Shown: positions 16,997 to 36,409, counted from the stretch's first letter. The stretch is 51,822 nt of DNA from an uncultured Candidatus Saccharibacteria bacterium (GCA_964411375.1 CAYPKR010000001.1:304807-356628), one strand, 5' to 3'. The notes: generated by a model from the letters alone, not told the origin. Numbers and translations are program-made.

Positions 16997-17128
16997 ATGC
17001 CCAATAAGTACATGACTCCTAAGTACAACCCGAGGCCGGAGTGGCCAGCAATTCCATGGTGGCTTGCACTCGGATTCTCAATTATGATCCTCGGCGTTCT
17101 TGTTCTCGCGTTCAAATTGGGAATGTAA
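16997..17128 (+). CDS. 43-aa membrane peptide
   Basis: Below the track cutoff. AAGGAG SD 7 nt before the ATG. Reads MPNKYMTPKYNPRPEWPAIPWWLALGFSIMILGVLVLAFKLGM. A hairpin (ggcgtccg...cggacgcc) follows. Confidence 0.5.
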   Translation: MPNKYMTPKYNPRPEWPAIPWWLALGFSIMILGVLVLAFKLGM

Positions 17129-17194
17129 GTTGAATCCAGCAAACTCAATAATCCAACGGCGTCCGAGCCCTCCGGACGCCGCTTCTTGTATTGA

Positions 17195-17362: not shown

Positions 17363-17577
17363 CAAGCGGAACACGATATAGGTGGATATGTCTAGATTGA
17401 CTGCGTCTACTTAGTAGTTATGATGCAAATCATACCACACTAGATGTATCTCGGGGGAAACGGATACACCATCAGTGATTAGTAAACGATGATGGAACGT
17501 TTCTTCACAGCGAGCACAGAACTTGTGCAGCGCCTAGGGCGACTGTATTTTTTCCGTGTTCATATATATATGTAAAA

Positions 17578-17614
17578 CACATGCCCCATGTCGCTTTGCG
17601 ACATGGGGCATGTG
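17578..17614. repeat. 17-bp perfect palindrome with 3-nt loop
   Basis: cacatgccccatgtcgc ttt gcgacatggggcatgtg. It lies 120 nt upstream of the 17734 start codon. Confidence 0.85.
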
Positions 17615-17733
17615 CTGTACAGAAATGTAGGGCATATTTGGTCGATACCAGATTTTTTGTTCCGTTTACCCTTAAGGGACGGAGGAAAGAATCTGCACAA
17701 AAAAATTATTCAAACAGAAATTACATAAACACA

Positions 17734-18804
17734 ATGACAAACTCAAAGAAGCTCGCAGCGCTCGCAGCGCTTCCAGCTCTCGCAATCGGTCTTTCAGCTG
17801 CTCCGGCACTCGCATTCGTCCCAGCAGGTGATGTCACAACAGTGAATGTGTCGAATTCGAATTCCGCATCGGTTTCAAATTCCGTCACACTCAACTCATC
17901 AACTGGCGGCAATACTGCAAATGGCGGTAACGGCGCAAAGGGCGGAAACGGAGGCAACTCTGGTTCTAACGCAGGAAACGGCGGCGAAGGCGGTAACGGC
18001 GGAAACGCAGGAAACGGTGGCGACGCAGACGGCGCTTTCGGTTCGACTCATCACCACTCATCTGACAACGTAGCAGTTGGTGGCGATGCAGGTAACGGCG
18101 GCGACGGCGCAAACGGCGGCAAGGGTGGCAACACCGGTGACGCTGGTATGGGTGGCAACGGTGGTATGGGCGGACTCGGCGGCATGATTGTCACCGGCAA
18201 CGCATCAGCTACTTCAGCTATCTCAAACGAAGTAAATCACAACTCAACGAAGGTAACCCTCAATGATGGTGATCCTGAGTACAACATTTTCGCAAAGGAG
18301 TCTTACTCTGCAAATTCAAGCTGGGGCCACAAGCACGGTTCGAATAATGAAAAGTGGAGCGATGTATACGTACAGACTGTTGTCCCTCAGAAGACACACG
18401 TCAACGTTTCTAACTCAAACTCTGCAGCAGTTTCAAACTCTGTATCAGGAGATGCTTCAACTGGCGACAACACTGCAAACGGTGGTAATGGCGCAAAGGG
18501 AGGCAAAGGAGGTAACTCTGGCTCAAACGCAGGTAATGGTGGCGATGGTGCTAACGGCGGCAAGGCTGGAAACGGCGGTGACGCAGAAGGCCACGGCACT
18601 GTTCTTGGCGGCATGGGTGGTAATGGCGGGGACGGCGCACACGGCGGTAAGGGCGGAAACACTGGCGACGGTGCAAACGCAGGAAACGGCGGTGATGGCG
18701 CAGAAGGCGGCGCAATTGCAACTGGCGATGCTGATCTCGTATCAGTTATTGCAAACGTCATCAACAAGAACATCACTCGCGTTCTCAAGAACGCAGGAAA
18801 CTAG
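17734..18804 (+). CDS. secreted Gly/Asn-rich repeat protein (two internal repeats)
   Basis: Signal peptide MTNSKKLAALAALPALAIGLSAAPALA. Two ~130-aa repeats each start VNVSNSNSAxVSNSV and end TG-x-A...N-x-N-x-T-x-V. The GGNGG-type low-complexity core is described in findings. Confidence 0.8.
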   Translation: MTNSKKLAALAALPALAIGLSAAPALAFVPAGDVTTVNVSNSNSASVSNSVTLNSSTGGNTANGGNGAKGGNGGNSGSNAGNGGEGGNGGNAGNGGDADGAFGSTHHHSSDNVAVGGDAGNGGDGANGGKGGNTGDAGMGGNGGMGGLGGMIVTGNASATSAISNEVNHNSTKVTLNDGDPEYNIFAKESYSANSSWGHKHGSNNEKWSDVYVQTVVPQKTHVNVSNSNSAAVSNSVSGDASTGDNTANGGNGAKGGKGGNSGSNAGNGGDGANGGKAGNGGDAEGHGTVLGGMGGNGGDGAHGGKGGNTGDGANAGNGGDGAEGGAIATGDADLVSVIANVINKNITRVLKNAGN

Positions 18805-18894
18805 TTGATTTCTCCTTGGAGCGGAACAGCAATGTTCCGCCCTTCGGATGCGGTTTGGAGCAGGCACTCAAAATCGCATAAGAGGGAAAAAAAG

Positions 18895-19440
18895 ATGAAA
18901 ACGATCTTCAGTACATTGATAGCGTTTCTTATGTTCGCACCGTTTGCATTTGCAGATTCTATTTCGGTGACCAACGAAGTTCATCTCAAAGCTTCATCTG
19001 GTGGAAATAGTTCAAACGGCGGCACCATTCATACCGGTTCGGTTTCTGCGTCAGTCGACATTGCCAACGACGAACCGAATCAGGACGTGCATACCTATAT
19101 TTCAACCACCACTGAAAGTTCGATCCACATCGATATTCAAAATGGTCGAAATGGTTCGGATGGTGCAAATGGGTCGGACGGCGAAGATGGAACAGACGGT
19201 ATGGATGGAGTTCCTGGAAAAGACGGAGTTTCTGGCGAGAAGAGTCAACCAATCGTCCATACTCATCCGATCATCAAAAATCCGACCACGGCAACTTCGA
19301 GTGCACCTCTCCATGCCTCGAGTTCGAACGCAGCAGCGATCCTTGCAGTCAAGGAAGAAGAAACGAAATCAATTACTCATTCGATACATCTTTTTTTCGA
19401 AGCAGTAACAAATTATGTCTGGTACTTCTTTACAAAATAA
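18895..19440 (+). CDS. secreted protein with one repeat module and a collagen-like GXY run
   Basis: AGAGGGA SD, then signal peptide MKTIFSTLIAFLMFAPFAFA. Eleven consecutive G-X-Y triplets are encoded at 19144-19242. Confidence 0.7.
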   Translation: MKTIFSTLIAFLMFAPFAFADSISVTNEVHLKASSGGNSSNGGTIHTGSVSASVDIANDEPNQDVHTYISTTTESSIHIDIQNGRNGSDGANGSDGEDGTDGMDGVPGKDGVSGEKSQPIVHTHPIIKNPTTATSSAPLHASSSNAAAILAVKEEETKSITHSIHLFFEAVTNYVWYFFTK

Positions 19441-19450
19441 TGATACTTTC

Positions 19451-22400
19451 ATGCGAAGATATTCGCGCGCTTTTGGCGTGCTTCTGATCGTTTCCCTGAT
19501 TGCGTTCGGAAATCCCGCAATCGTCCTTCTCGCGGATGAAGCTCCGGCGGATTCCACACCACCTGCTGAATCGACGACGCCACCCGCGGAGACTACTCCT
19601 CCAGCAGAAACAACACCACCAGCAGACACCACGCCTCCAGCGGGGAATGATGGTGCTTCTACTCCTTCTGTCGAAACGCCTGCTCCAGACACCACTACTA
19701 CTCCTGCCGACGCTCCATCAGATACTACTACCGTAACAACCGGCGACGCAGTTTCTGGTTCAGACACCACAACAACCGTAAACACCAACGAAACAAGCGT
19801 TGATCAAAATGCCCCAGCACCAACCGGTTCTGGTGGCGGAGCGCCAAGTGACGTTTCTCCTTCCGGTTCAGGAGGCGCTGCACCAACTGATCATCAAAAT
19901 CTTTCTGGAAATGCAAACGCCGAGACGAATGTCACCGTTGATAACGAAAATACTGCAACTGCATCAAACAATGTATCTTCTGATGCACAAACGGGAGGTA
20001 ATTCGGCAGAGAATACCGCAACGACAACTTCAGGAAACGCATCAGTCACGACCGGCAACGCATACGCATACGCAAACGTCGTTAATGTCTTGAACACCAA
20101 TATCTTTAACTCGCAAGGATTCTTCCTCTTTCTCAACTCATTCTTCGGTGGCGGAACGCTCGATCTCTCGAATCTTTCGTTTATGAATCCGACTGGCGGA
20201 CCATCGGGTACGACGTATTGTTCGCTCGGCGGTTGTGATGATGAAAACGATACGCAGTACGTTGCAATCAACAACAACAACGCAACAATCGACAATCAAG
20301 TCATTGTGCGTGCAGGTTCCGGTGGCAACACCGCAACTGCAGGAAACGGCGACGCATCAGTCACGACCGGCAACGCGTACGCTGCTGCAAACGTGGTGAA
20401 CGTTGCAAACACCAACTTTGTTGATTCCAACTACCTCCTTCTTTCGTTCAACAATTTTGGTGATATGAACGGAGACGTCATTCTCCCAACTGCTGATTTC
20501 TGGTCACATCTCTTTGGTTCCGGAAGCGGACTTGGGTCAGGCGGATCTCTTAATTCAACCAACACAAACACCGCAAACATCACGAACAATGTTGGTGCGG
20601 ATGCATCGAGCGGCAATAATTCAGCAACTGCAGATGGCGGTAGCGCATCAGTTCAAACCGGAAATGTGAGCGCAAATGGTGGCGTTACCAACGTCGTCAA
20701 TACCAATCAAGTTGGTGGAACGAGCGTATTCCTTCTCTTCCGCGTATTTGGTGATTGGGCAGGGGATGTCTTCAACGCGCCGCCTGGAATCGAGTGGGCT
20801 GAAACACCAAATGGTATTCAACTCTTCTCTGCAGACGGAACAGGAGATGGACTTTCAGCACTTCAGAATTTGAATTCAACAAATAGTTCGACCGCATCAA
20901 TCACCAATGACGTTCATGTGTATGCGCTGACGGGCGATAACCAGGCAAGTGCAAATGGCGGCAACGCATCGGTTCAAACGGGTAACGCATACGCGGCAGC
21001 AAACGTGATGAACATCGCAAACACGAATGTCATCGGTCGCAACTGGATCTTCGCAGTCTTCAACATCTTCGGAAATTGGCACGGCAATATTTCATTCGGT
21101 CAGCCGGATCTTTGGATCGGCGCGCTCGCAACCCCTGATACGACTGGTGAACTCGTCTCGGGAACCGATGTTGCATATCACTTCACCGTAACCAACCGCG
21201 GAAAAGCAACGGCAACGAATGTCCATGTTGATCTCAGTTACGATCACGCACACATTCCGTTTATCGATGGCAATTCATTTGATATCGGCACCCTCGCACC
21301 AGGTCAAACCGTTGAAGTTGTAAAGCATGCGACAATCACCAACTTGCCGCTTGGCGATACGCCGCTTCCAGTCACTGCACACGTTACTGAACACGAAACT
21401 GATGCAAACCCAGCAGACAACCAAGACGAAGTTACGATTGTCGGACAATTCTATGTAACCGGCGGATCATTCGGTGCTGCACAGGTAAGTGGCATTCCAG
21501 GGGGAGCAGGGTACGTTGATCCAGTTTGGAAAATTGTAAAGACTGTTTCTGCAACATCGACTACTGCATCATCAACGGTTGATTACAAAGTGGTCATCAA
21601 CAACGATGGCGCGCCTGCATACAGTGCAACCCTCTTCGATACCGTAACTGACCAAGACGGCAATATTATCTTCGAGCAATCGTGGGATCTTGGTACCGTA
21701 CCGCACGGTGAGGAAGATACCATCACGTATTCCGTCTTCTTCCACGACAATATTCCTGCGGGCGTCTACACCAACCATGCATTCGTCAAAGCATGGAGCC
21801 GCGATCCAAATCCAGGCAAAGGAGTTGAGTCTGATTCGCCAATTGCAACGGCAAGCGTCCGCATTCTCGGAGACGCGCCAATCGCAAAAGCAAACCGCTC
21901 ATGCGATCAATACATTCACAAAGCAATTCGAGCTGGACAGAAGAATGATCCAACCGAAGTGTCGAAACTCCAGAATTTCCTCTCTTCATTCGGTGGATTC
22001 TCCAATGTCCACGACACTGGCGTATACGATCAAGCAACGCAAGATGCAGTACGTCTCTTCCAGGATCAGCACAAGGATGATGTCTTGAATCCATGGGGGC
22101 TTGAAGGTCCAACCGGATACGTCTACATCACGACGAGAAAGAAGATTAATGATATCTACTGCCAAGGCGTTCGTGATTTCCCACTCACCTCAAACGATAC
22201 GACTGAAATCAATTCATTCCGCGGATACTTGCTCTCACTTCGTGCATCTCACGCTGATCGTGGAGTCAGACTCTTCGAACTTCCAACAGGGGATGCGACA
22301 AGCGAAGCAACTGGTGCAAATGACGTTGTCTCAACCAGCGGTCCAGGCGTATTCACCAGAACCTTGAATACTGCAAAAGACAGTGCAACAAACACTTCTG

Positions 22401-22540
22401 CTGCAGTCATCAACGCAACTGAAGCACTTGGTCTCATGGTTACAACCACTGCAGATGCGCTTCACGGAATCAAAGGTTGGATTCATGGATTCTCCGGTGT
22501 CCTCAAAAACAAACTTTCTGGATTCCATTTCGGAAAGTAA
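19451..22540 (+). CDS. giant secreted surface protein: PT-rich linker, 4 repeat modules, CARDB/DUF11-like domains, PG-binding-like domain
   Basis: Signal/anchor MRRYSRAFGVLLIVSLIAFG and a TPPAE-type repeat. Four modules end in TGNAYA-x-ANV-x-N-x-x-NTN. HFTVTNRGKATATNVHV-type beta-sandwich segments are present. C-terminal LQNFLSS...YDQATQDAVRLFQ resembles PG_binding_1. Confidence 0.8.
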   Translation: MRRYSRAFGVLLIVSLIAFGNPAIVLLADEAPADSTPPAESTTPPAETTPPAETTPPADTTPPAGNDGASTPSVETPAPDTTTTPADAPSDTTTVTTGDAVSGSDTTTTVNTNETSVDQNAPAPTGSGGGAPSDVSPSGSGGAAPTDHQNLSGNANAETNVTVDNENTATASNNVSSDAQTGGNSAENTATTTSGNASVTTGNAYAYANVVNVLNTNIFNSQGFFLFLNSFFGGGTLDLSNLSFMNPTGGPSGTTYCSLGGCDDENDTQYVAINNNNATIDNQVIVRAGSGGNTATAGNGDASVTTGNAYAAANVVNVANTNFVDSNYLLLSFNNFGDMNGDVILPTADFWSHLFGSGSGLGSGGSLNSTNTNTANITNNVGADASSGNNSATADGGSASVQTGNVSANGGVTNVVNTNQVGGTSVFLLFRVFGDWAGDVFNAPPGIEWAETPNGIQLFSADGTGDGLSALQNLNSTNSSTASITNDVHVYALTGDNQASANGGNASVQTGNAYAAANVMNIANTNVIGRNWIFAVFNIFGNWHGNISFGQPDLWIGALATPDTTGELVSGTDVAYHFTVTNRGKATATNVHVDLSYDHAHIPFIDGNSFDIGTLAPGQTVEVVKHATITNLPLGDTPLPVTAHVTEHETDANPADNQDEVTIVGQFYVTGGSFGAAQVSGIPGGAGYVDPVWKIVKTVSATSTTASSTVDYKVVINNDGAPAYSATLFDTVTDQDGNIIFEQSWDLGTVPHGEEDTITYSVFFHDNIPAGVYTNHAFVKAWSRDPNPGKGVESDSPIATASVRILGDAPIAKANRSCDQYIHKAIRAGQKNDPTEVSKLQNFLSSFGGFSNVHDTGVYDQATQDAVRLFQDQHKDDVLNPWGLEGPTGYVYITTRKKINDIYCQGVRDFPLTSNDTTEINSFRGYLLSLRASHADRGVRLFELPTGDATSEATGANDVVSTSGPGVFTRTLNTAKDSATNTSAAVINATEALGLMVTTTADALHGIKGWIHGFSGVLKNKLSGFHFGK

Positions 22541-22546
22541 GATTCA

Positions 22547-22597
22547 AAATTAAAAACAAAAAATACCGGCCGAGCCGGTATTTTTTGTTTTTAATTT
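22547..22597. terminator. 24-bp hairpin terminator
   Basis: aaattaaaaacaaaaaataccggc cga gccggtattttttgtttttaattt. Confidence 0.7.
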
Positions 22598-29545: not shown

Positions 29546-30859
29546 TCAGCCGCGGACTTCGAGAGTCCGGATATTGCCGATCGCGGTAGTTTGTTTGAAC
29601 GGTAGTTGAGGAACAAAGGTGAGATTGAGGACGGTTGCTGAACCGACCTGATTCGTAATATCGAACACTTGACTGGTCCCGCCGGCGCCGCAGATGTCAC
29701 CGTGCCGGACTGGCGCGATGGACCCTGCAAAATAGGGGCCGTCTGCTTTGGGGGTAACCCCGCTTGGCAGATCGACATAGAGTTCTTCGAACGCACCCGA
29801 TCCATTGCAGGTGATGCCGGAGAGGGTGAGTAGTACCCGCCCACTTCGTGCCGCATGAGTCAGTTTGACCTGAACCGTCGTCTTGTTTGATGGAAGTGCG
29901 AGTCCATTTACGGTCGCGAGCACTTCCGCGGGCTGAAGAATGACTGCCGATTTCGCCATCATGAGCGACATTCGAGCAGCAGGTGCGGCTGGTAATGTTG
30001 GCCACGCTTCATATTTCTGTGCGAAATCTTCTCCCAATATCTGGGATACAGGCTTTTGCACGGAGTTTCCATTCGCATCCCGAAACGCGAACATCTGGTA
30101 CAAGAACGCGTCGGTCGAGGGATATTCGCCGCCGCGGCTTCGCCAGAAGCGAATGAGCATCTGGATCCAGCCGTGGAGGAGATAGAAGAGCGGATCCCGC
30201 GGTGCAACCGCAAGATCTACCATGTCGCCGCCGGTCGCGTTATGAATCGGACCATGTGGCTGTGCCTGAAGTGAGCCCTGGATTGCCCCGGTTTCCCGAA
30301 GCGGCGGCCCAGCAATGCCACCGAGACTTGGGCTTCCATCCGTTGTCGTATATGGAACGACTTGGACAGAGTTTTGCCATTGTACGGCAGAAAGCGGATA
30401 CGCCCCGCCGTTATTGATGGAAGATGCGCGAGTTGGGTGGTAGAGAGCAGAGGTTTTGGTTCGAAACTCGGATGGCAGTATTCGCCCTGACATCTTCGAA
30501 AAGTCGAGATAGGGGAGGGAGAACTGTGGATCGGCCGAGAGGACACGGATGACCTGCTCGAACCACCACAAAAAGCCAGCGTGCCACGGACCAAAATGGT
30601 AACTCCCGTGGACGGCGAGCTCGTTATGGAATCCAACGAAATAGGCCATGCTGTACGGGTCTTCCCATGGCGCACTTGGGTTGCCGGGCCGATTTTTTAT
30701 AGCGGTCCAGCCCTTGATAAAGGAAGCTCGATTCCGCTTACCGTCGGGAGTGGTGCTGGTCCACTCGGTCCGCAAGAAGCTTGCGGCGTTGAGGACGGTG
30801 GGAAGGGCTACCGAAGCAGCACTTGCCAGGAAAAGTTGGAGGGCGTCACGTCGCCTCAT
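29546..30859 (-). CDS. tyrosinase / type-3 copper polyphenol oxidase with Tat-type signal
   Basis: CuA region FHNELAVHGSYHFGPWHAGFLWWFEQ. CuB region PHGPIHNATGGDM...RDPLFYLLHGW. N-terminal MRRRDALQLFLASAASVALP. Start taken at 30859. Confidence 0.85.
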   Translation of the reverse strand: MRRRDALQLFLASAASVALPTVLNAASFLRTEWTSTTPDGKRNRASFIKGWTAIKNRPGNPSAPWEDPYSMAYFVGFHNELAVHGSYHFGPWHAGFLWWFEQVIRVLSADPQFSLPYLDFSKMSGRILPSEFRTKTSALYHPTRASSINNGGAYPLSAVQWQNSVQVVPYTTTDGSPSLGGIAGPPLRETGAIQGSLQAQPHGPIHNATGGDMVDLAVAPRDPLFYLLHGWIQMLIRFWRSRGGEYPSTDAFLYQMFAFRDANGNSVQKPVSQILGEDFAQKYEAWPTLPAAPAARMSLMMAKSAVILQPAEVLATVNGLALPSNKTTVQVKLTHAARSGRVLLTLSGITCNGSGAFEELYVDLPSGVTPKADGPYFAGSIAPVRHGDICGAGGTSQVFDITNQVGSATVLNLTFVPQLPFKQTTAIGNIRTLEVRG

Positions 30860-30962
30860 CTCGAGGTACTCCTGTTGTGTAAAGGTTCGTCTGTACCGGA
30901 CAATACCAGAAGCCGTCTGTAAATACAATGAAAAGGCGTAATTGGGGAGATTCAATCCTTTT

Positions 30963-33992: not shown

Positions 33993-34937
33993 ATGCGAAG
34001 ATTGATCGGAAATATCGTGTTGCTCGCAGGACTTGGCGTGCTGGTATTCATATTCCGCGAACCCCTCGGAGAGAGTTGGCGGCTTTTTCAAAATAAAATC
34101 AATCCGTGTTCGGAGCCAATTGTCTATACAATCGGTACATTCGATTCGAAGTTTGGCATAACCAAAGATGTATTTCTTGCGGATATCAAACAAGGTGAAT
34201 CGCTGTGGGAAAAAGCTGCAGGAAGAAATCTCTTTGAGTATGATCCGCTAACTAAAGATCCTCATGCACTCACGATAAATCTTGTTTACGATTATCGGCA
34301 GGACGCAACCAAGCGTATGGCGGAGCTTGGCGTCAAAGTTGAAAACAGCAAGGCATCGTACGACGAGCTTCGCGCAAAATACCTTTCACTGAAGTCCTCG
34401 CTTGATAGCGCGAAAGCAAAATTTGAACGTGACAATGCGGCATTTTCTGCGCGGAATGAAGCGTACAAAAAAGAAGTGCAGTATTGGAATGATCGAGGTG
34501 GCGCACGCGAGCCAGAATTTTCTCGTATTCAAGCCGAAGGTGCTGCACTTAAAGCGCAGTTTCAAACTATTTCCGAAGAGCAAACAAGTATCAACAAAAC
34601 AGTCGATACAATCAATGCGCTGGTCGTCGTCATAAATCAAATCGCAAATAATATTAATCTGAACGCTGAAGCGTTCAATGAGATCGGAAAATCGCGTGGT
34701 GACGAATTTGAGGAAGGAATTTACGAGCGAGATGGTTCGACACAAAAAATCGATATTTACGAATTTACTGATTCAGAAAAATTGGTGCGAGTACTCGCGC
34801 ACGAACTTGGACATGCACTTGGACTCGCCCATGTCGATGATTCAAAAGCGATCATGTATTCGCTAAATCAGGGAACCGGTGTATCTCTGACTGCCGCAGA
34901 TGTTTCAGAACTTACTGCAAAATGTCGGCTTAAATAA
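33993..34937 (+). CDS. membrane-anchored matrixin-like (M10) zinc metalloprotease with coiled-coil insert
   Basis: VLAHELGHALGLAHVDDSKAIMY contains HExxHxxGxxH plus the Met-turn. N-terminal TM helix. Confidence 0.75.
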   Translation: MRRLIGNIVLLAGLGVLVFIFREPLGESWRLFQNKINPCSEPIVYTIGTFDSKFGITKDVFLADIKQGESLWEKAAGRNLFEYDPLTKDPHALTINLVYDYRQDATKRMAELGVKVENSKASYDELRAKYLSLKSSLDSAKAKFERDNAAFSARNEAYKKEVQYWNDRGGAREPEFSRIQAEGAALKAQFQTISEEQTSINKTVDTINALVVVINQIANNINLNAEAFNEIGKSRGDEFEEGIYERDGSTQKIDIYEFTDSEKLVRVLAHELGHALGLAHVDDSKAIMYSLNQGTGVSLTAADVSELTAKCRLK

Positions 34938-35480: not shown

Positions 35481-35626
35481 ATTTTGGCGAAAATTGCCAA
35501 AAATGTGGAATTGTTTCCTAATGTAAAATCTGTTGTTTTTGAGGATAGTCATTCGTCTACACTATTGTCGCCATATACTCTTTGGCGGCAATACTAGACT
35601 AATTGAGCAACATAATTACGACGTAT

Positions 35627-36409
35627 ATGAACAAAATAAGTCAGATCGGGACTGGTGCAGTGCTCGCGTCAATAATTGCCGCAACGCCACTTTTTGCACT
35701 CGCACATGAGGGGCACGAAGGAGAAGGAAATCATGGAACCTCATTCAGTACTCGCATGGAAGCGAAAATTGATTCCGTATTGGATTTGTTCAATCGAAAA
35801 TCGGACAATGCAGGAAAAGGTAAAAAGTCAGAAAATGACGATAATTCGGGGATCGCATTCCGCGGCACGGTGTCGGCAAATGCAAGCTCGACCCTTACGG
35901 TGCTCGGATCAGATGGCAAAACCTACACCGTCGATACGACTGGTGCGATGATCAAATCAGTCGCAACCTCGACTCACGGCACGATTGCAGTCGGCGATAT
36001 CAAGATCCAGGATCCGATTTTTGTCGCAGGATCTGAAACTGGTACAACGACCATCGAAGCGTCACTCATTGTTGTCGGAGTATTTGGCGAGAAAGTACAT
36101 GACCGAAGAGGAAAGGATTCATGGAAAAAGTTTGACGGTGTTGCCAAGGGTGTTGTCACTTCAGTAGACGGGAACACTATTACCATTCTGAACAAAAAGA
36201 CTGGCACAACGACAGTCGTCACCGATTCGAATACTGCCTTTCGCCTTGATGGTGCGACTACGACATCTGGTTCAGTCGCAGTTGGTTCAAAGGTAGTTAT
36301 TACGGGAACAACCACTGCAACCTCAACGGTATCTGCATCGATTGTTGATGTATTTACCAAAGGATTCAAAAAGTTTGTGCACGTCTGTTTTGGATGGATG
36401 CATAAATAA
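35627..36409 (+). CDS. secreted protein with DUF5666-like repeats
   Basis: Signal peptide, a His-rich stretch (HEGHEGEGNHG), and repeated G-x-V-x-S-V-x-G-x-T-(L/I)-T-(V/I) beta-strand motifs. Confidence 0.55.
   Translation: MNKISQIGTGAVLASIIAATPLFALAHEGHEGEGNHGTSFSTRMEAKIDSVLDLFNRKSDNAGKGKKSENDDNSGIAFRGTVSANASSTLTVLGSDGKTYTVDTTGAMIKSVATSTHGTIAVGDIKIQDPIFVAGSETGTTTIEASLIVVGVFGEKVHDRRGKDSWKKFDGVAKGVVTSVDGNTITILNKKTGTTTVVTDSNTAFRLDGATTTSGSVAVGSKVVITGTTTATSTVSASIVDVFTKGFKKFVHVCFGWMHK

What the first reader, a model, noticed from the sequence alone, without database searches (positions are those of the whole stretch)
17734..22540. Three adjacent genes for secreted proteins that share an unnamed repeat module: a candidate cell-surface structure locus
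All three ORFs start with signal peptides. All three contain the same module: N-x-(S/T/N)-N-x-A-x-(V/I)-x-N-x-V-x3-(A/S)-x-(S/T)-G-(G/D/N)-N-(S/T)-A, then ...-(V/I)-x-T-G-(N/D)-A-x-A-x-(A/S)-x-(V/I)-x-N-x-x-N-(T/K)-N.

Examples of the module:
- Gene 1: VNVSNSNSASVSNSVTLNSSTGGNTANGG....IVTGNASATSAISNEVNHNST, present twice.
- Gene 2: ISVTNEVHLKASSGGNSSNGGTIHTGSVSASVDIAND, present once.
- Gene 3: VTVDNENTATASNNVSSDAQTGGNSAENTATTTSGNASVTTGNAYAYANVVNVLNTNIF.

Gene 3 carries four copies in total. Each is followed by a hydrophobic F-x-x-F-G-(D/N)-(W/M)-x-G-(D/N)-(V/I) strand.

Gene 3 also has a TPPAE-type Pro/Thr linker, two CARDB/DUF11-like segments and a C-terminal segment resembling a peptidoglycan-binding domain. 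I cannot assign the shared module to a named family. Its regular alternation suggests a beta-solenoid or beta-sandwich fibre. A paralogous, co-oriented, tightly spaced trio is what a dedicated surface appendage, S-layer or adhesin system would look like.
Basis: partly seen in the sequence, partly recalled or inferred. Interest (0 to 1): 0.7.

Follow-up and report, generated by a model that had tools for sequence, protein, structure and literature searches.

The report
Surface-protein operon sharing an unnamed module
Three neighbouring genes of an ultra-small (CPR/Patescibacteria) bacterium encode secreted cell-envelope proteins built from the same all-beta building block, which matched no family library or solved structure I could search; the trio is kept together across relatives and is a candidate for the still unidentified outer surface layer of these cells.

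Summary
Genes g1 (17734-18804), g2 (18895-19440) and g3 (19415-22540) lie on the + strand. Each starts with a signal-peptide-like N-terminus. All three share a ~55-residue Asn/Thr/Gly/Ala-rich module. g3 has four full copies plus one partial copy. g1 has two copies, each split by a Gly-rich insert. g2 has one.

Profile-profile comparison gives 94-97% probability that the modules are related. None of 2000 composition-preserving shuffles reached the real scores.

The module matches nothing in Pfam, NCBIfam or PDB sequences. A confident AlphaFold model of the g3 array (pLDDT 86.5, pTM 0.81, all beta) has no Foldseek match in PDB or BFVD.

g3 also carries two DUF11/CLIPPER domains and a PG_binding_1 domain. 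g2 and g3 end in amphipathic helices.

A g1-like gene sits upstream in 72 of 73 related loci. A g2-like gene is present in at least 59 of 73. Flanking genes are not conserved and no dedicated secretion genes were found.

Best reading: a Sec-exported envelope assembly with g3 as the wall-tethered base, g2 as a small tethered protein and g1 as the free subunit. Co-assembly is inferred, not shown.

A conserved, covarying RNA hairpin precedes g1.

The parts
17397..17424 (+). Promoter-like site (TTGACT-16-TATGAT) about 310 nt upstream of g1.
   Evidence: Consensus scan only. It lies downstream of a terminator-like hairpin at 17157-17181 that follows a 43-aa membrane ORF.
17581..17613 (+). Perfect 15-bp hairpin in the g1 leader (CATGCCCCATGTCGC-TTT-GCGACATGGGGCATG).
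   Evidence: Read from the sequence. Related loci show a hairpin of different sequence at a similar place, but its covariation was not tested.
17651..17695 (+). Conserved structured leader hairpin. Its 3' arm holds an SD-like GGAGGAA, about 40 nt before the g1 ATG.
   Evidence: RNAalifold predicts 15 pairs, 8 of them with compensatory changes. 88.9% of cells are paired against 77.6% in shuffles (0/500) and at most 63% when partners are slid. The covariance model finds it once per locus, directly upstream of the g1-like gene, in 19 loci and nowhere else in the window. No Rfam family matches.
17734..18804 (+). g1: 356-aa secreted protein. Mature form about 30.5 kDa, pI 4.96, no Cys, 25% Gly, no anchor. 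It has two modules.
   Evidence: ORF and translation. 134 homologs, all unnamed or hypothetical, with no Pfam domain except one isolated precomputed hit (PF02934 on P0137). Family consensus.
17833..18261 (+). g1 module 1: N-half (residues 34-63), Gly-rich insert (64-150), C-half (151-176).
   Evidence: HMM half-hits at 36-76 and 136-171. hhalign gives 96.8% across the insert. The insert has a period of 3, with 90% G/A/S in one frame.
18391..18789 (+). g1 module 2: N-half (residues 220-249), Gly-rich insert (250-326), C-half (327-352).
   Evidence: HMM half-hits at 221-262 and 314-348. hhalign gives 96.4%. The insert has a period of 3, with 92% G/A/S in one frame.
18895..19440 (+). g2: 181-aa protein. 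It has a signal peptide, one module (residues 21-64), a collagen-like G-X-Y x11 run (83-116) and a C-terminal aromatic amphipathic helix (about 160-181).
   Evidence: Translation. Module hit at 23-58 and hhalign 94.2%. Collagen scores 26.3 bits, just under the Pfam cut-off of 27.2. The C-terminal helix ending ...FSxF is conserved in about 60 synteny-derived homologs.
19415..22540 (+). g3: 1041-aa protein (an alternative start at 19451 gives MRRYS...). In order: signal peptide or anchor, Pro/Thr linker, module array, two CLIPPER domains, PG_binding_1, C-terminal amphipathic helix.
   Evidence: ORF. At least 184 homologs, many carrying DUF11 and PG_binding_1. Pfam results.
19688..19792 (+). g3 partial fifth module (residues 92-126), C-half only (TTVTTGDAVSGSDTTTTVNTNE).
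   Evidence: 13.1 bits against HMM positions 23-57. The element IxTGDAxAxxxxxNxxNTN is conserved in the family consensus. Most g3-like proteins show five matched stretches.
19925..21100 (+). g3 array of four full modules (residues 171-250, 282-357, 378-453, 484-562). Each module is a core plus a hydrophobic FxxFGxWxG tail.
   Evidence: HMM scores 75-101 bits per copy. The AlphaFold2 model has pLDDT 86.5 and pTM 0.81, is all beta, and repeats the same strand pattern four times. There is no Pfam hit at E<=1 and no significant Foldseek match.
21152..21439 (+). g3 CLIPPER/DUF11 domain 1 (residues 580-675).
   Evidence: PF01345, 39.2 bits for the whole protein against a cut-off of 24.6.
21533..21817 (+). 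g3 CLIPPER/DUF11 domain 2 (residues 707-801), with conserved Lys, Asp and Asn.
   Evidence: PF01345, 31.1 bits on the isolated segment. The K, D and N columns are conserved in 105-108 of 109 homologs. DUF11 was renamed CLIPPER as an isopeptide-bond domain in PMC12617251.
21953..22072 (+). g3 peptidoglycan-binding domain (residues 847-886).
   Evidence: PF01471, 27.7 bits against a cut-off of 23. It recurs in many homologs.
22421..22537 (+). g3 C-terminal amphipathic, aromatic helix (...GIKGWIHGFSGVLKNKLSGFHFGK).
   Evidence: Comparable C-termini occur in g3 homologs. Some have a clear TM helix followed by R/K and AFTSF. They resemble the g2 C-terminus.
22550..22594 (.). Bidirectional terminator-like hairpin (about 20-bp stem flanked by A- and T-runs), 10 nt after the g3 stop.
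   Evidence: Terminator scan.

Best explanation
This is an operon that is conserved in the Parcubacteria/Paceibacteria part of Patescibacteria. It encodes three Sec-exported, acidic cell-envelope structural proteins that share one all-beta module not found in any library I searched.

Proposed roles:
- g3 is the wall-tethered base. From the N-terminus it has a Pro/Thr linker, a rigid array of four modules, two CLIPPER (isopeptide-type) stalk domains, a peptidoglycan-binding domain and a C-terminal amphipathic helix.
- g2 is a small protein with one module and the same kind of C-terminal helix.
- g1 is the untethered subunit. It has two modules whose hairpin tip is expanded into Gly-rich, period-3 inserts.

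Most likely g1 is retained on, or polymerises from, the tethered g2 and g3 through module-to-module beta-sheet contacts. This would form a surface layer or fibre outside the wall.

Shown here: the shared module, the domain make-up, the synteny, the absence of a match in the searched libraries, and the all-beta prediction. Inferred: export, wall tethering, co-assembly and high expression.
For: Shared module:
- Profile-profile probabilities are 94-97%.
- Shuffle controls give 0 of 2000.
- A jackhmmer search seeded with g2 recovers the g3 and g1 families from the ORFs of the 84 fetched loci.
- The g1-family HMM hits g3 proteins at E 1e-20 to 1e-6.

Linkage:
- A g1-like gene lies upstream on the same strand in 72 of 73 loci.
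- A g2-like gene is present in at least 59 of 73 loci: 46 between g1 and g3, 13 just after g3.
- The flanking genes differ between loci. The most frequent neighbour occurs in only 15 of about 80 loci. In one locus the trio sits between EF-G and EF-Tu.

Envelope location:
- Signal-peptide-like N-termini with a conserved PAxA motif in the g1 family.
- A signal peptidase I gene in the window.
- PG_binding_1 and two CLIPPER domains above the Pfam cut-offs.
- Mature pI of 4.3-5.0 with 0, 0 and 4 Cys.
- No dedicated secretion or sortase genes in the window or the flanks.

Structure:
- The four g3 modules are predicted as one confident all-beta body (pLDDT 86.5, pTM 0.81).
- The g1 modules show the same long-strand and hairpin elements.

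Operon signals: a terminator-like hairpin right after g3 and a conserved leader hairpin before g1.

Background: CPR cells show a periodic outer layer (3.2-3.8 nm and 10 nm spacings) and no outer membrane, and its components are unknown (PMC7906910; PMC5220378).
Against: - There is no direct evidence that the three proteins touch each other. The residues shared by all three families (TGGN and TGDA turns, alternating N/V/A) look fold-determining rather than interface-specific.
- No expression, proteomic or imaging data were found.
- The g1 model is only moderate (pLDDT 69.9, pTM 0.44).
- g2 evolves fast (only 3 word-index homologs) and is undetected in 14 of 73 loci, partly because of my filters.
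- Signal peptides were judged by eye.
- The isopeptide bond and peptidoglycan binding are inferred from family membership alone.
Confidence: 0.55

Rival explanations
1. The three are independent adhesins or host-attachment proteins of an episymbiont. In this reading the module is a ligand-binding (for example glycan-binding) domain displayed on a CLIPPER stalk. The genes are neighbours because they arose by duplication, not because their products assemble together.
For: CLIPPER/DUF11 domains are typical stalks of fibrillar adhesins (PMC12617251). g3 has a distal-array, stalk and anchor layout. g1 paralogs are multiplied in some loci: three copies in L037, L052 and L065. Other large surface proteins with SpaA, PG_binding_1, lectin or RTX domains are frequent neighbours. 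CPR cells attach to hosts (PMC7906910).
Against: The order and presence of the trio are conserved far beyond what duplication alone would leave. g1 has no anchor at all, so it would need a partner to stay on the cell. The conserved positions are turns and alternating core residues, not a pocket-like patch.
Confidence: 0.25
2. This is a curli-like functional-amyloid system. The anchored proteins g2 and g3 would act as nucleators, and secreted g1 would polymerise on them into beta-solenoid or amyloid fibres.
For: The modules are Asn/Gly/Ser/Thr/Ala-rich strand-turn-strand units with GGN-x-A turns reminiscent of CsgA repeats. The only, and non-significant, Foldseek neighbours are beta-solenoids and amyloids: FapC 9nqd at E 0.57 and CsgA 8c50 at E 1.4, plus SufD and EtpA. 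The split into anchored and free proteins sharing one repeat parallels CsgB/CsgA (my knowledge of curli).
Against: No Curlin_rpt hit at E<=1. TM-scores are below 0.11. There are no CsgG/E/F-like genes. The module is 55-78 aa long, against about 22 aa for a curlin repeat. The g3 array is predicted as a compact monomeric body.
Confidence: 0.12
3. The resemblance among the three proteins is a low-complexity or compositional artefact, and the genes are unrelated hypothetical ORFs.
For: All three are rich in N, G, S, T and A. The first four-sequence HMM did not detect the C-half in g1 or g2.
Against: Shuffle controls give 0 of 2000. hhalign aligns both halves across the insert at 96-97%. Hundreds of conserved homologs exist. 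Synteny is conserved. The AF2 model is confident.
Confidence: 0.01

Closest known systems
Fibrillar adhesins with CLIPPER (DUF11) stalks and a cell-wall anchor (PMC12617251)
   Same: g3 has two DUF11/CLIPPER domains above the Pfam cut-off. The second keeps conserved Lys, Asp and Asn. The domains lie between a distal beta-rich region and a wall-binding domain.
   Different: There are only two stalk domains. The anchor is PG_binding_1 plus an amphipathic helix, not LPXTG or OmpA-like. The distal part is an unnamed four-module array. g3 is also locked in an operon with two small proteins that share the module.
Curli (CsgA/CsgB) and Fap functional amyloids
   Same: Secreted N/G/S/T/A-rich strand-turn-strand repeats, and a tethered protein and a free protein sharing the same repeat. 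They are the only, weak, Foldseek neighbours.
   Different: No Curlin_rpt match, TM-scores below 0.11, no CsgG/E/F or FapF machinery, a monoderm-type envelope, and a much longer repeat unit.
S-layer proteins of monoderm bacteria with a wall-binding domain
   Same: Acidic, Cys-poor, Sec-secreted and wall-tethered. The 5' leader is long and structured. CPR cells have a periodic outer layer.
   Different: No SLH, CWB2 or other known S-layer domain. The anchor sits on g3 and the candidate major subunit g1 is only about 30 kDa. Lattice formation is untested.
Polyglycine-II / PPII helix bundles (snow-flea antifreeze protein, phage S16 gp38 'PGII sandwich', Obg N-domain; from my own knowledge)
   Same: The g1 inserts have a period-3 pattern with 90-92% G/A/S in one frame. 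They are modelled with pLDDT 74-89 but without DSSP helix or strand.
   Different: Foldseek found no match for the g1 model. Here the Gly-rich part is an insertion inside a beta module, and its length varies from about 20 to more than 100 residues among homologs.
Bacterial collagen-like surface proteins (Scl1/Scl2, BclA)
   Same: g2 has 11 uninterrupted G-X-Y triplets.
   Different: The Pfam score is just below the cut-off. The run is short and is replaced by Ser/Thr-rich spacers in g2 homologs. There is no LPXTG.

Membership tests
Pfam DUF11 / CLIPPER (PF01345) | HMM match above the gathering score | tested here: met
   39.2 bits against 24.6, in two stretches (g3 580-675 and 707-801).
Pfam DUF11 / CLIPPER (PF01345) | Lys-Asn isopeptide bond with a catalytic Asp/Glu | tested here: inconclusive
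   In domain 2 the K, D and N columns are conserved in 105-108 of 109 homologs. The residues were not mapped onto a structure. No PDB sequence hit was obtained for this region.
PG_binding_1 (PF01471) | HMM match above the gathering score | tested here: met
   27.7 bits against 23, at g3 847-886. The domain recurs in homologs. Binding itself was not tested.
Curli subunits (Curlin_rpt) | Match to the curlin repeat HMM | tested here: not met
   No Curlin_rpt hit at E<=1 for g1, g2, g3 or the isolated module array.
Curli subunits (Curlin_rpt) | Accessory secretion genes (CsgG/E/F) nearby | tested here: not met
   The window ORFs and the most frequent flanking clusters of about 80 loci are housekeeping genes or other surface proteins.
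Curli / Fap amyloid fold | Structural similarity to CsgA or FapC | tested here: not met
   Foldseek gives E 1.4 (8c50) and 0.57 (9nqd), with TM-scores at or below 0.10.
LPXTG sortase substrates | C-terminal LPXTG motif, then a TM helix and a basic tail | tested here: not met
   No C-terminal LPXTG in g1, g2 or g3. The only loose match is an internal LPVTA at g3 651. No sortase gene is present in the window.
Collagen triple-helix repeat (PF01391) | Uninterrupted G-X-Y repeats and an HMM match | tested here: inconclusive
   g2 has 11 G-X-Y triplets. The Pfam score of 26.3 is below the cut-off of 27.2. The run is not conserved in g2 homologs.
RTX beta-roll (HemolysinCabind) | GGxGxDxUx nonapeptide HMM match in the g1 Gly-rich inserts | tested here: not met
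   No hit at E<=1. The periodicity is 3, not 9.
Polyglycine-II helix bundle | Gly or another small residue every third position | tested here: met
   One frame is 90-92% G/A/S. The lag-3 and lag-6 autocorrelations are positive.
Polyglycine-II helix bundle | Bundle of PPII-type helices in three dimensions | tested here: inconclusive
   The inserts are modelled without DSSP secondary structure at pLDDT 74-89.
S-layer protein | Known S-layer or anchoring domain (SLH, CWB2 and the like) | tested here: not met
   Pfam and NCBIfam show none. Only PG_binding_1 is present, on g3.
S-layer protein | Self-assembly into a two-dimensional lattice covering the cell | not testable with these tools
   This needs EM or cryo-ET of cells or of purified protein.

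The most novel reading that the evidence does not exclude
The trio makes the periodic outer surface layer seen by cryo-TEM on CPR/Patescibacteria cells, whose protein components have never been identified. It would be built on a beta fold with no solved relative. g1 would be the lattice or fibre subunit, carrying polyglycine-II-type inserts. g2 and g3 would be its membrane and peptidoglycan tethers. A lineage-specific structured mRNA leader would support high expression.
Probability: 0.2. Interest if true: 0.85.

Novelty: new variant of a known kind. Interest (0 to 1): 0.62.

Why it matters
The make-up of the CPR/Patescibacteria cell envelope is an acknowledged open question. [quoted passage not shown] Another reports periodic surface layers with no outer membrane (PMC7906910).

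This locus offers concrete candidates that can be cloned:
- a module family with at least 1687 clusters at 50% identity in public data;
- a confident predicted structure that no solved structure resembles;
- a conserved three-gene unit;
- a peptidoglycan tether.

That makes the question testable by proteomics, by in-vitro assembly and by cryo-ET with subtomogram fitting. It would also add a new domain family, and a new cis-regulatory RNA motif, to the databases.

Tried and rejected
- **Four-sequence HMM.** An HMM built only from the window's g3 copies found the N-half in g1 and g2 but not the C-half. A 154-copy family HMM and hhalign resolved this.
- **MAFFT of the seven window modules.** It misplaced the g1 C-halves (A3). 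I used the five-sequence A5 for the large search instead.
- **PDB sequence searches.** g3, g1, the CLIPPER region and the A1 profile gave nothing apart from one Gly-rich chance hit.
- **Foldseek.** The g3 array against PDB and BFVD, and g1 against PDB, gave nothing significant.
- **g2 homolog search.** It returned only three relatives. I collected the g2 family through synteny and jackhmmer instead.
- **Conserved accessory genes.** Clustering the flanking ORFs of about 80 loci showed no conserved partner.
- **LPXTG, RTX and curlin readings.** All rejected.
- **Rfam.** Gathering and E-value searches of the leader gave only chance miRNA-like hairpin hits.
- **Upstream variable hairpin and the GGTCGATA box.** Their variable spacing defeated the alignment, so they are recorded as untested.
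- **Literature.** Searches for a description of this module or of CPR S-layer proteins found none.

Full report
**1. What is at the coordinates**

The interval 17734-22540 holds three + strand ORFs.
- g1 runs from 17734 to 18804 (356 aa). I used the Met that precedes a signal peptide; the longest ORF starts at 17581.
- g2 runs from 18895 to 19440 (181 aa).
- g3 runs from 19415 to 22540 (1041 aa). An alternative start at 19451 gives MRRYSRAF...

The gaps are 90 nt between g1 and g2, and an overlap or about 10 nt between g2 and g3. A terminator-like hairpin with a stem of about 20 bp sits 10 nt after the g3 stop. A promoter-like site lies about 310 nt upstream of g1.

The rest of the 51.8-kb window encodes housekeeping functions. 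These include ValRS, HSP20, PrsW, TsaD, Sua5, MurJ, LepA, FtsZ, FtsA, HisRS, signal peptidase I, Pth, ribosomal protein S1, RNase P RNA and tRNAs. There is no sortase and no dedicated secretion system.

**2. The repeat module is real**

An HMM built from the four g3 copies recovers them at 1e-30 to 1e-38. Its N-half hits only g1 (both copies) and g2 among 740 six-frame segments of the window.

A 154-copy family HMM gave the following on the window proteins:
- g3: full copies at 171-250, 282-357, 378-453 and 484-562, plus a partial fifth copy (C-half only) at 92-126.
- g1: N- and C-halves at 36-76/136-171 and 221-262/314-348.
- g2: residues 23-58.

Composition-preserving shuffles never reached the real scores. 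g1 scores 26.3 bits against a shuffled maximum of -13.7. g2 scores 16.7 bits against 13.9. Both are 0 of 2000.

Profile-profile alignment (hhalign) relates the g3 module to both g1 modules at 96.8% and 96.4%. Both halves align across the Gly-rich insert. The g3 module relates to the g2 family at 94.2%.

The core consensus is VxVxNxNxAxVxNxVxVxAxTGxNxA ... IxTGDAxAxxxVxNxVNxNxT. Only g3 adds the hydrophobic tail (N)YLLxxFNNFGDWxGDIVLP.

**3. Other domains**

- Pfam places two DUF11/CLIPPER domains in g3, at 580-675 and 707-801.
- Pfam places PG_binding_1 at g3 847-886. All three matches are above their cut-offs.
- DUF11 was recently renamed CLIPPER and shown to hold an intramolecular isopeptide bond (PMC12617251).
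- In g3 domain 2 a Lys, an Asp and an Asn are conserved in 105-108 of 109 homologs. This fits such a bond, but I did not map the residues onto a structure.
- g2 has 11 uninterrupted G-X-Y triplets. Collagen scores 26.3 bits, just under the cut-off of 27.2. Homologs replace this run with Ser/Thr-rich spacers.
- g2 homologs end in an aromatic amphipathic helix (...IFKNVFSIF). Many g3 homologs end similarly, some with a clear TM helix followed by basic residues and AFTSF.
- The mature proteins are acidic (pI 4.96, 4.91 and 4.28). They have 0, 0 and 4 Cys and no LPXTG.

**4. The Gly-rich inserts of g1**

Each g1 module is interrupted between ...TGGNTANGG and ...IVTGNA by a Gly-rich stretch of 77-87 residues. 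The same position is a short hairpin tip in g3.

The inserts have a period of 3. One frame is 90-92% G/A/S, and the lag-3 and lag-6 autocorrelations are positive. Their length varies from about 20 to more than 100 residues among homologs.

AlphaFold models parts of them at pLDDT 74-89 with no DSSP helix or strand. That fits polyglycine-II/PPII-type helices, but I could not inspect coordinates, so this stays an inference.

**5. Is the module known?**

- No Pfam or NCBIfam family matches g1 or the isolated 406-aa g3 array at E<=1.
- The precomputed Pfam lists of more than 250 homologs show only DUF11, DUF7507, CARDB, NPCBM_assoc and PG_binding_1, plus two isolated hits. These are families I did not find in the window's own module array. 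Their positions in the homologs were not checked.
- Other proteins carrying the module also have no Pfam hit.
- PDB sequence searches with single sequences and with the 110-sequence family profile return nothing to the module.
- The AlphaFold2 model of g3 165-570 is confident (pLDDT 86.5, pTM 0.81) and all beta. It repeats one pattern four times: a 21-residue strand, two 4-residue strands, an 11-residue strand, then 3- and 10-residue strands.
- Foldseek finds no significant match in PDB (best E 0.44, TM below 0.11). The weak list is beta-solenoids and amyloids: SufD, FapC, CsgA and EtpA. Nothing significant appears in BFVD either.
- The g1 model has no PDB match at all.
- AFDB, the ESM Atlas and HHpred databases were not available. 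The claim is therefore 'no named family and no solved relative', not 'new fold' in an absolute sense.

**6. Distribution and synteny**

- g3 has at least 184 homologs at E<=1e-3, and g1 has 134.
- Source names include Kaiserbacteria, Harrisonbacteria, Vogelbacteria, Giovannonibacteria, Nomurabacteria, Sungbacteria, Ryanbacteria, Minisyncoccia and one Microgenomates protein.
- The 56-position module profile finds 1687 clusters at 50% identity with E<=1e-3 among 1.84 billion representatives, and 864 at E<=1e-10.
- A scan of one genome per GTDB species found 224 matching stretches (tblastn E<=1e-3). The best 80 are all Patescibacteria-type MAGs.
- In those loci plus four others, 72 of the 73 with at least 1.8 kb of upstream DNA have a g1-like gene upstream on the same strand.
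- At least 59 of 73 have a g2-like small gene: 46 between g1 and g3, and 13 directly after g3. Some of the misses are artefacts of my filters.
- Several loci carry two or three g1 paralogs.
- Flanking genes are not conserved. The most frequent is another SpaA + PG_binding_1 surface protein (15 loci). ValRS and a CAP-domain protein follow with 10 each, then TsaD (8), PrsW and a subtilase (7 each).
- In one genome the trio lies between fusA and tuf. The conserved unit is the trio itself.

**7. How it most likely works**

Shown: three co-transcribable genes, an N-terminal export-type signal on each, one shared beta module, a wall-binding domain and stalk domains on g3, C-terminal amphipathic helices on g2 and g3 but not on g1, and no dedicated machinery.

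Inferred:
- Sec export and cleavage by signal peptidase I.
- g3 tethered to peptidoglycan, and possibly to the membrane, with its rigid module array held outward on the CLIPPER stalk.
- g2 tethered by its C-terminal helix.
- g1, which has no anchor, retained or polymerised through module-module contacts. The outcome would be a layer or fibre.

I put this at 0.55.

The main rival is that these are separate adhesins whose module binds a host ligand (0.25). A curli-like nucleator and subunit amyloid is a more specific variant (0.12); its family tests failed but the logic remains possible. A compositional artefact is excluded.

**8. Relation to open questions**

Cryo-TEM of groundwater CPR cells shows a periodic outer layer (3.2-3.8 nm and 10 nm) and no outer membrane (PMC7906910). 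A Parcubacteria genome paper states that the envelope's structure and formation remain unclear (PMC5220378).

My literature searches found no description of this module or of CPR S-layer proteins. The trio is therefore a reasonable candidate, but there is no expression or imaging evidence.

**9. Leader RNA (seen in passing, partly followed up)**

A 45-nt hairpin lies about 40 nt before the g1 ATG, at 17651-17695. The ATG itself has no SD sequence. The hairpin has an outer stem, a 3-nt bulge, an inner CCC/GGG stem and a TTAA loop. Its 3' arm contains GGAGGAA.

- RNAalifold predicts 15 pairs, 8 with compensatory changes.
- 88.9% of cells are paired, against 77.6% in shuffles (0 of 500) and at most 63% in slid controls.
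- A covariance model finds it once per locus, directly upstream of the g1-like gene, in 19 of the 82 related loci searched (977 kb with the window). It finds nothing else in the window.
- Rfam has no match.
- A conserved GGTCGATA box and a variable hairpin lie further upstream; these were not tested.

By analogy with 5' stabilising hairpins and the STAB-SD element (my own knowledge), it may stabilise a highly expressed mRNA. This is untested.

**10. Verdict**

The thing belongs to a known kind (a wall-tethered surface-protein system), but it is built on a domain that matched no library I searched and sits in a conserved three-gene arrangement. I rate it a new variant of a known kind, with interest 0.62.

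Noticed in passing
window 17651-17695 (+): A conserved 45-nt RNA hairpin with compensatory base changes lies about 40 nt upstream of the g1 start. An SD-like GGAGGAA sits in its 3' arm. It is found once per locus, directly upstream of the g1-like gene, in 19 related loci, and it has no Rfam family.
   Followed up: partly
window 17581-17648 (+): A perfect 15-bp hairpin (17581-17613) and a conserved GGTCGATA box (about 17640-17648) lie upstream of the leader hairpin. Relatives have a hairpin of different sequence followed by the same box. Its role (promoter element, RNA domain or protein site) is unknown.
   Followed up: partly
window 16998-17129 (+): An unannotated 43-aa ORF (MPNKYMTPKYNPRPEWPAIPWWLALGFSIMILGVLVLAFKLGM) has an RBS-like GGAGAG and one predicted TM helix. 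A terminator-like hairpin follows at 17157-17181. It lies between ValRS and the g1 leader.
   Followed up: no
window 29546-30955 (-): A 469-aa protein has a tyrosinase central domain (PF00264, E 8e-22) and a weak DUF7868 match. This is an unusual enzyme for a reduced CPR genome and could relate to cross-linking or pigment chemistry at the envelope.
   Followed up: no
window 35603-36409 (+); 33993-34937 (+): A DUF5666-containing protein and a matrixin-type (Peptidase_M10) protein are further possible secreted or envelope proteins in the same window.
   Followed up: no
L002 2040-10324: In one relative, on a 977-kb contig, the whole trio is inserted between fusA (EF-G) and tuf (EF-Tu). This is a context usually associated with strong expression.
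   Followed up: no
L047 and L060 (same contig CAZWFX010000002.1); L037, L052, L065: Some genomes carry two g3-like loci about 17 kb apart, or two to three tandem g1 paralogs. This suggests diversification of the free subunit.
   Followed up: no
g1 homologs in A2 (e.g. P0121-P0142): Most g1 homologs have a conserved CGC(D/E) motif right after the first module. The window's g1 lacks it and has no Cys at all.
   Followed up: no
window 18895-19440; P0358: The public gene call for g2 (169 aa) starts 12 codons downstream of the Met that gives a complete signal peptide and has an AGAGGG RBS. Public calls for several g1 homologs are extended upstream into the leader, because the leader happens to be an open frame.
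   Followed up: partly
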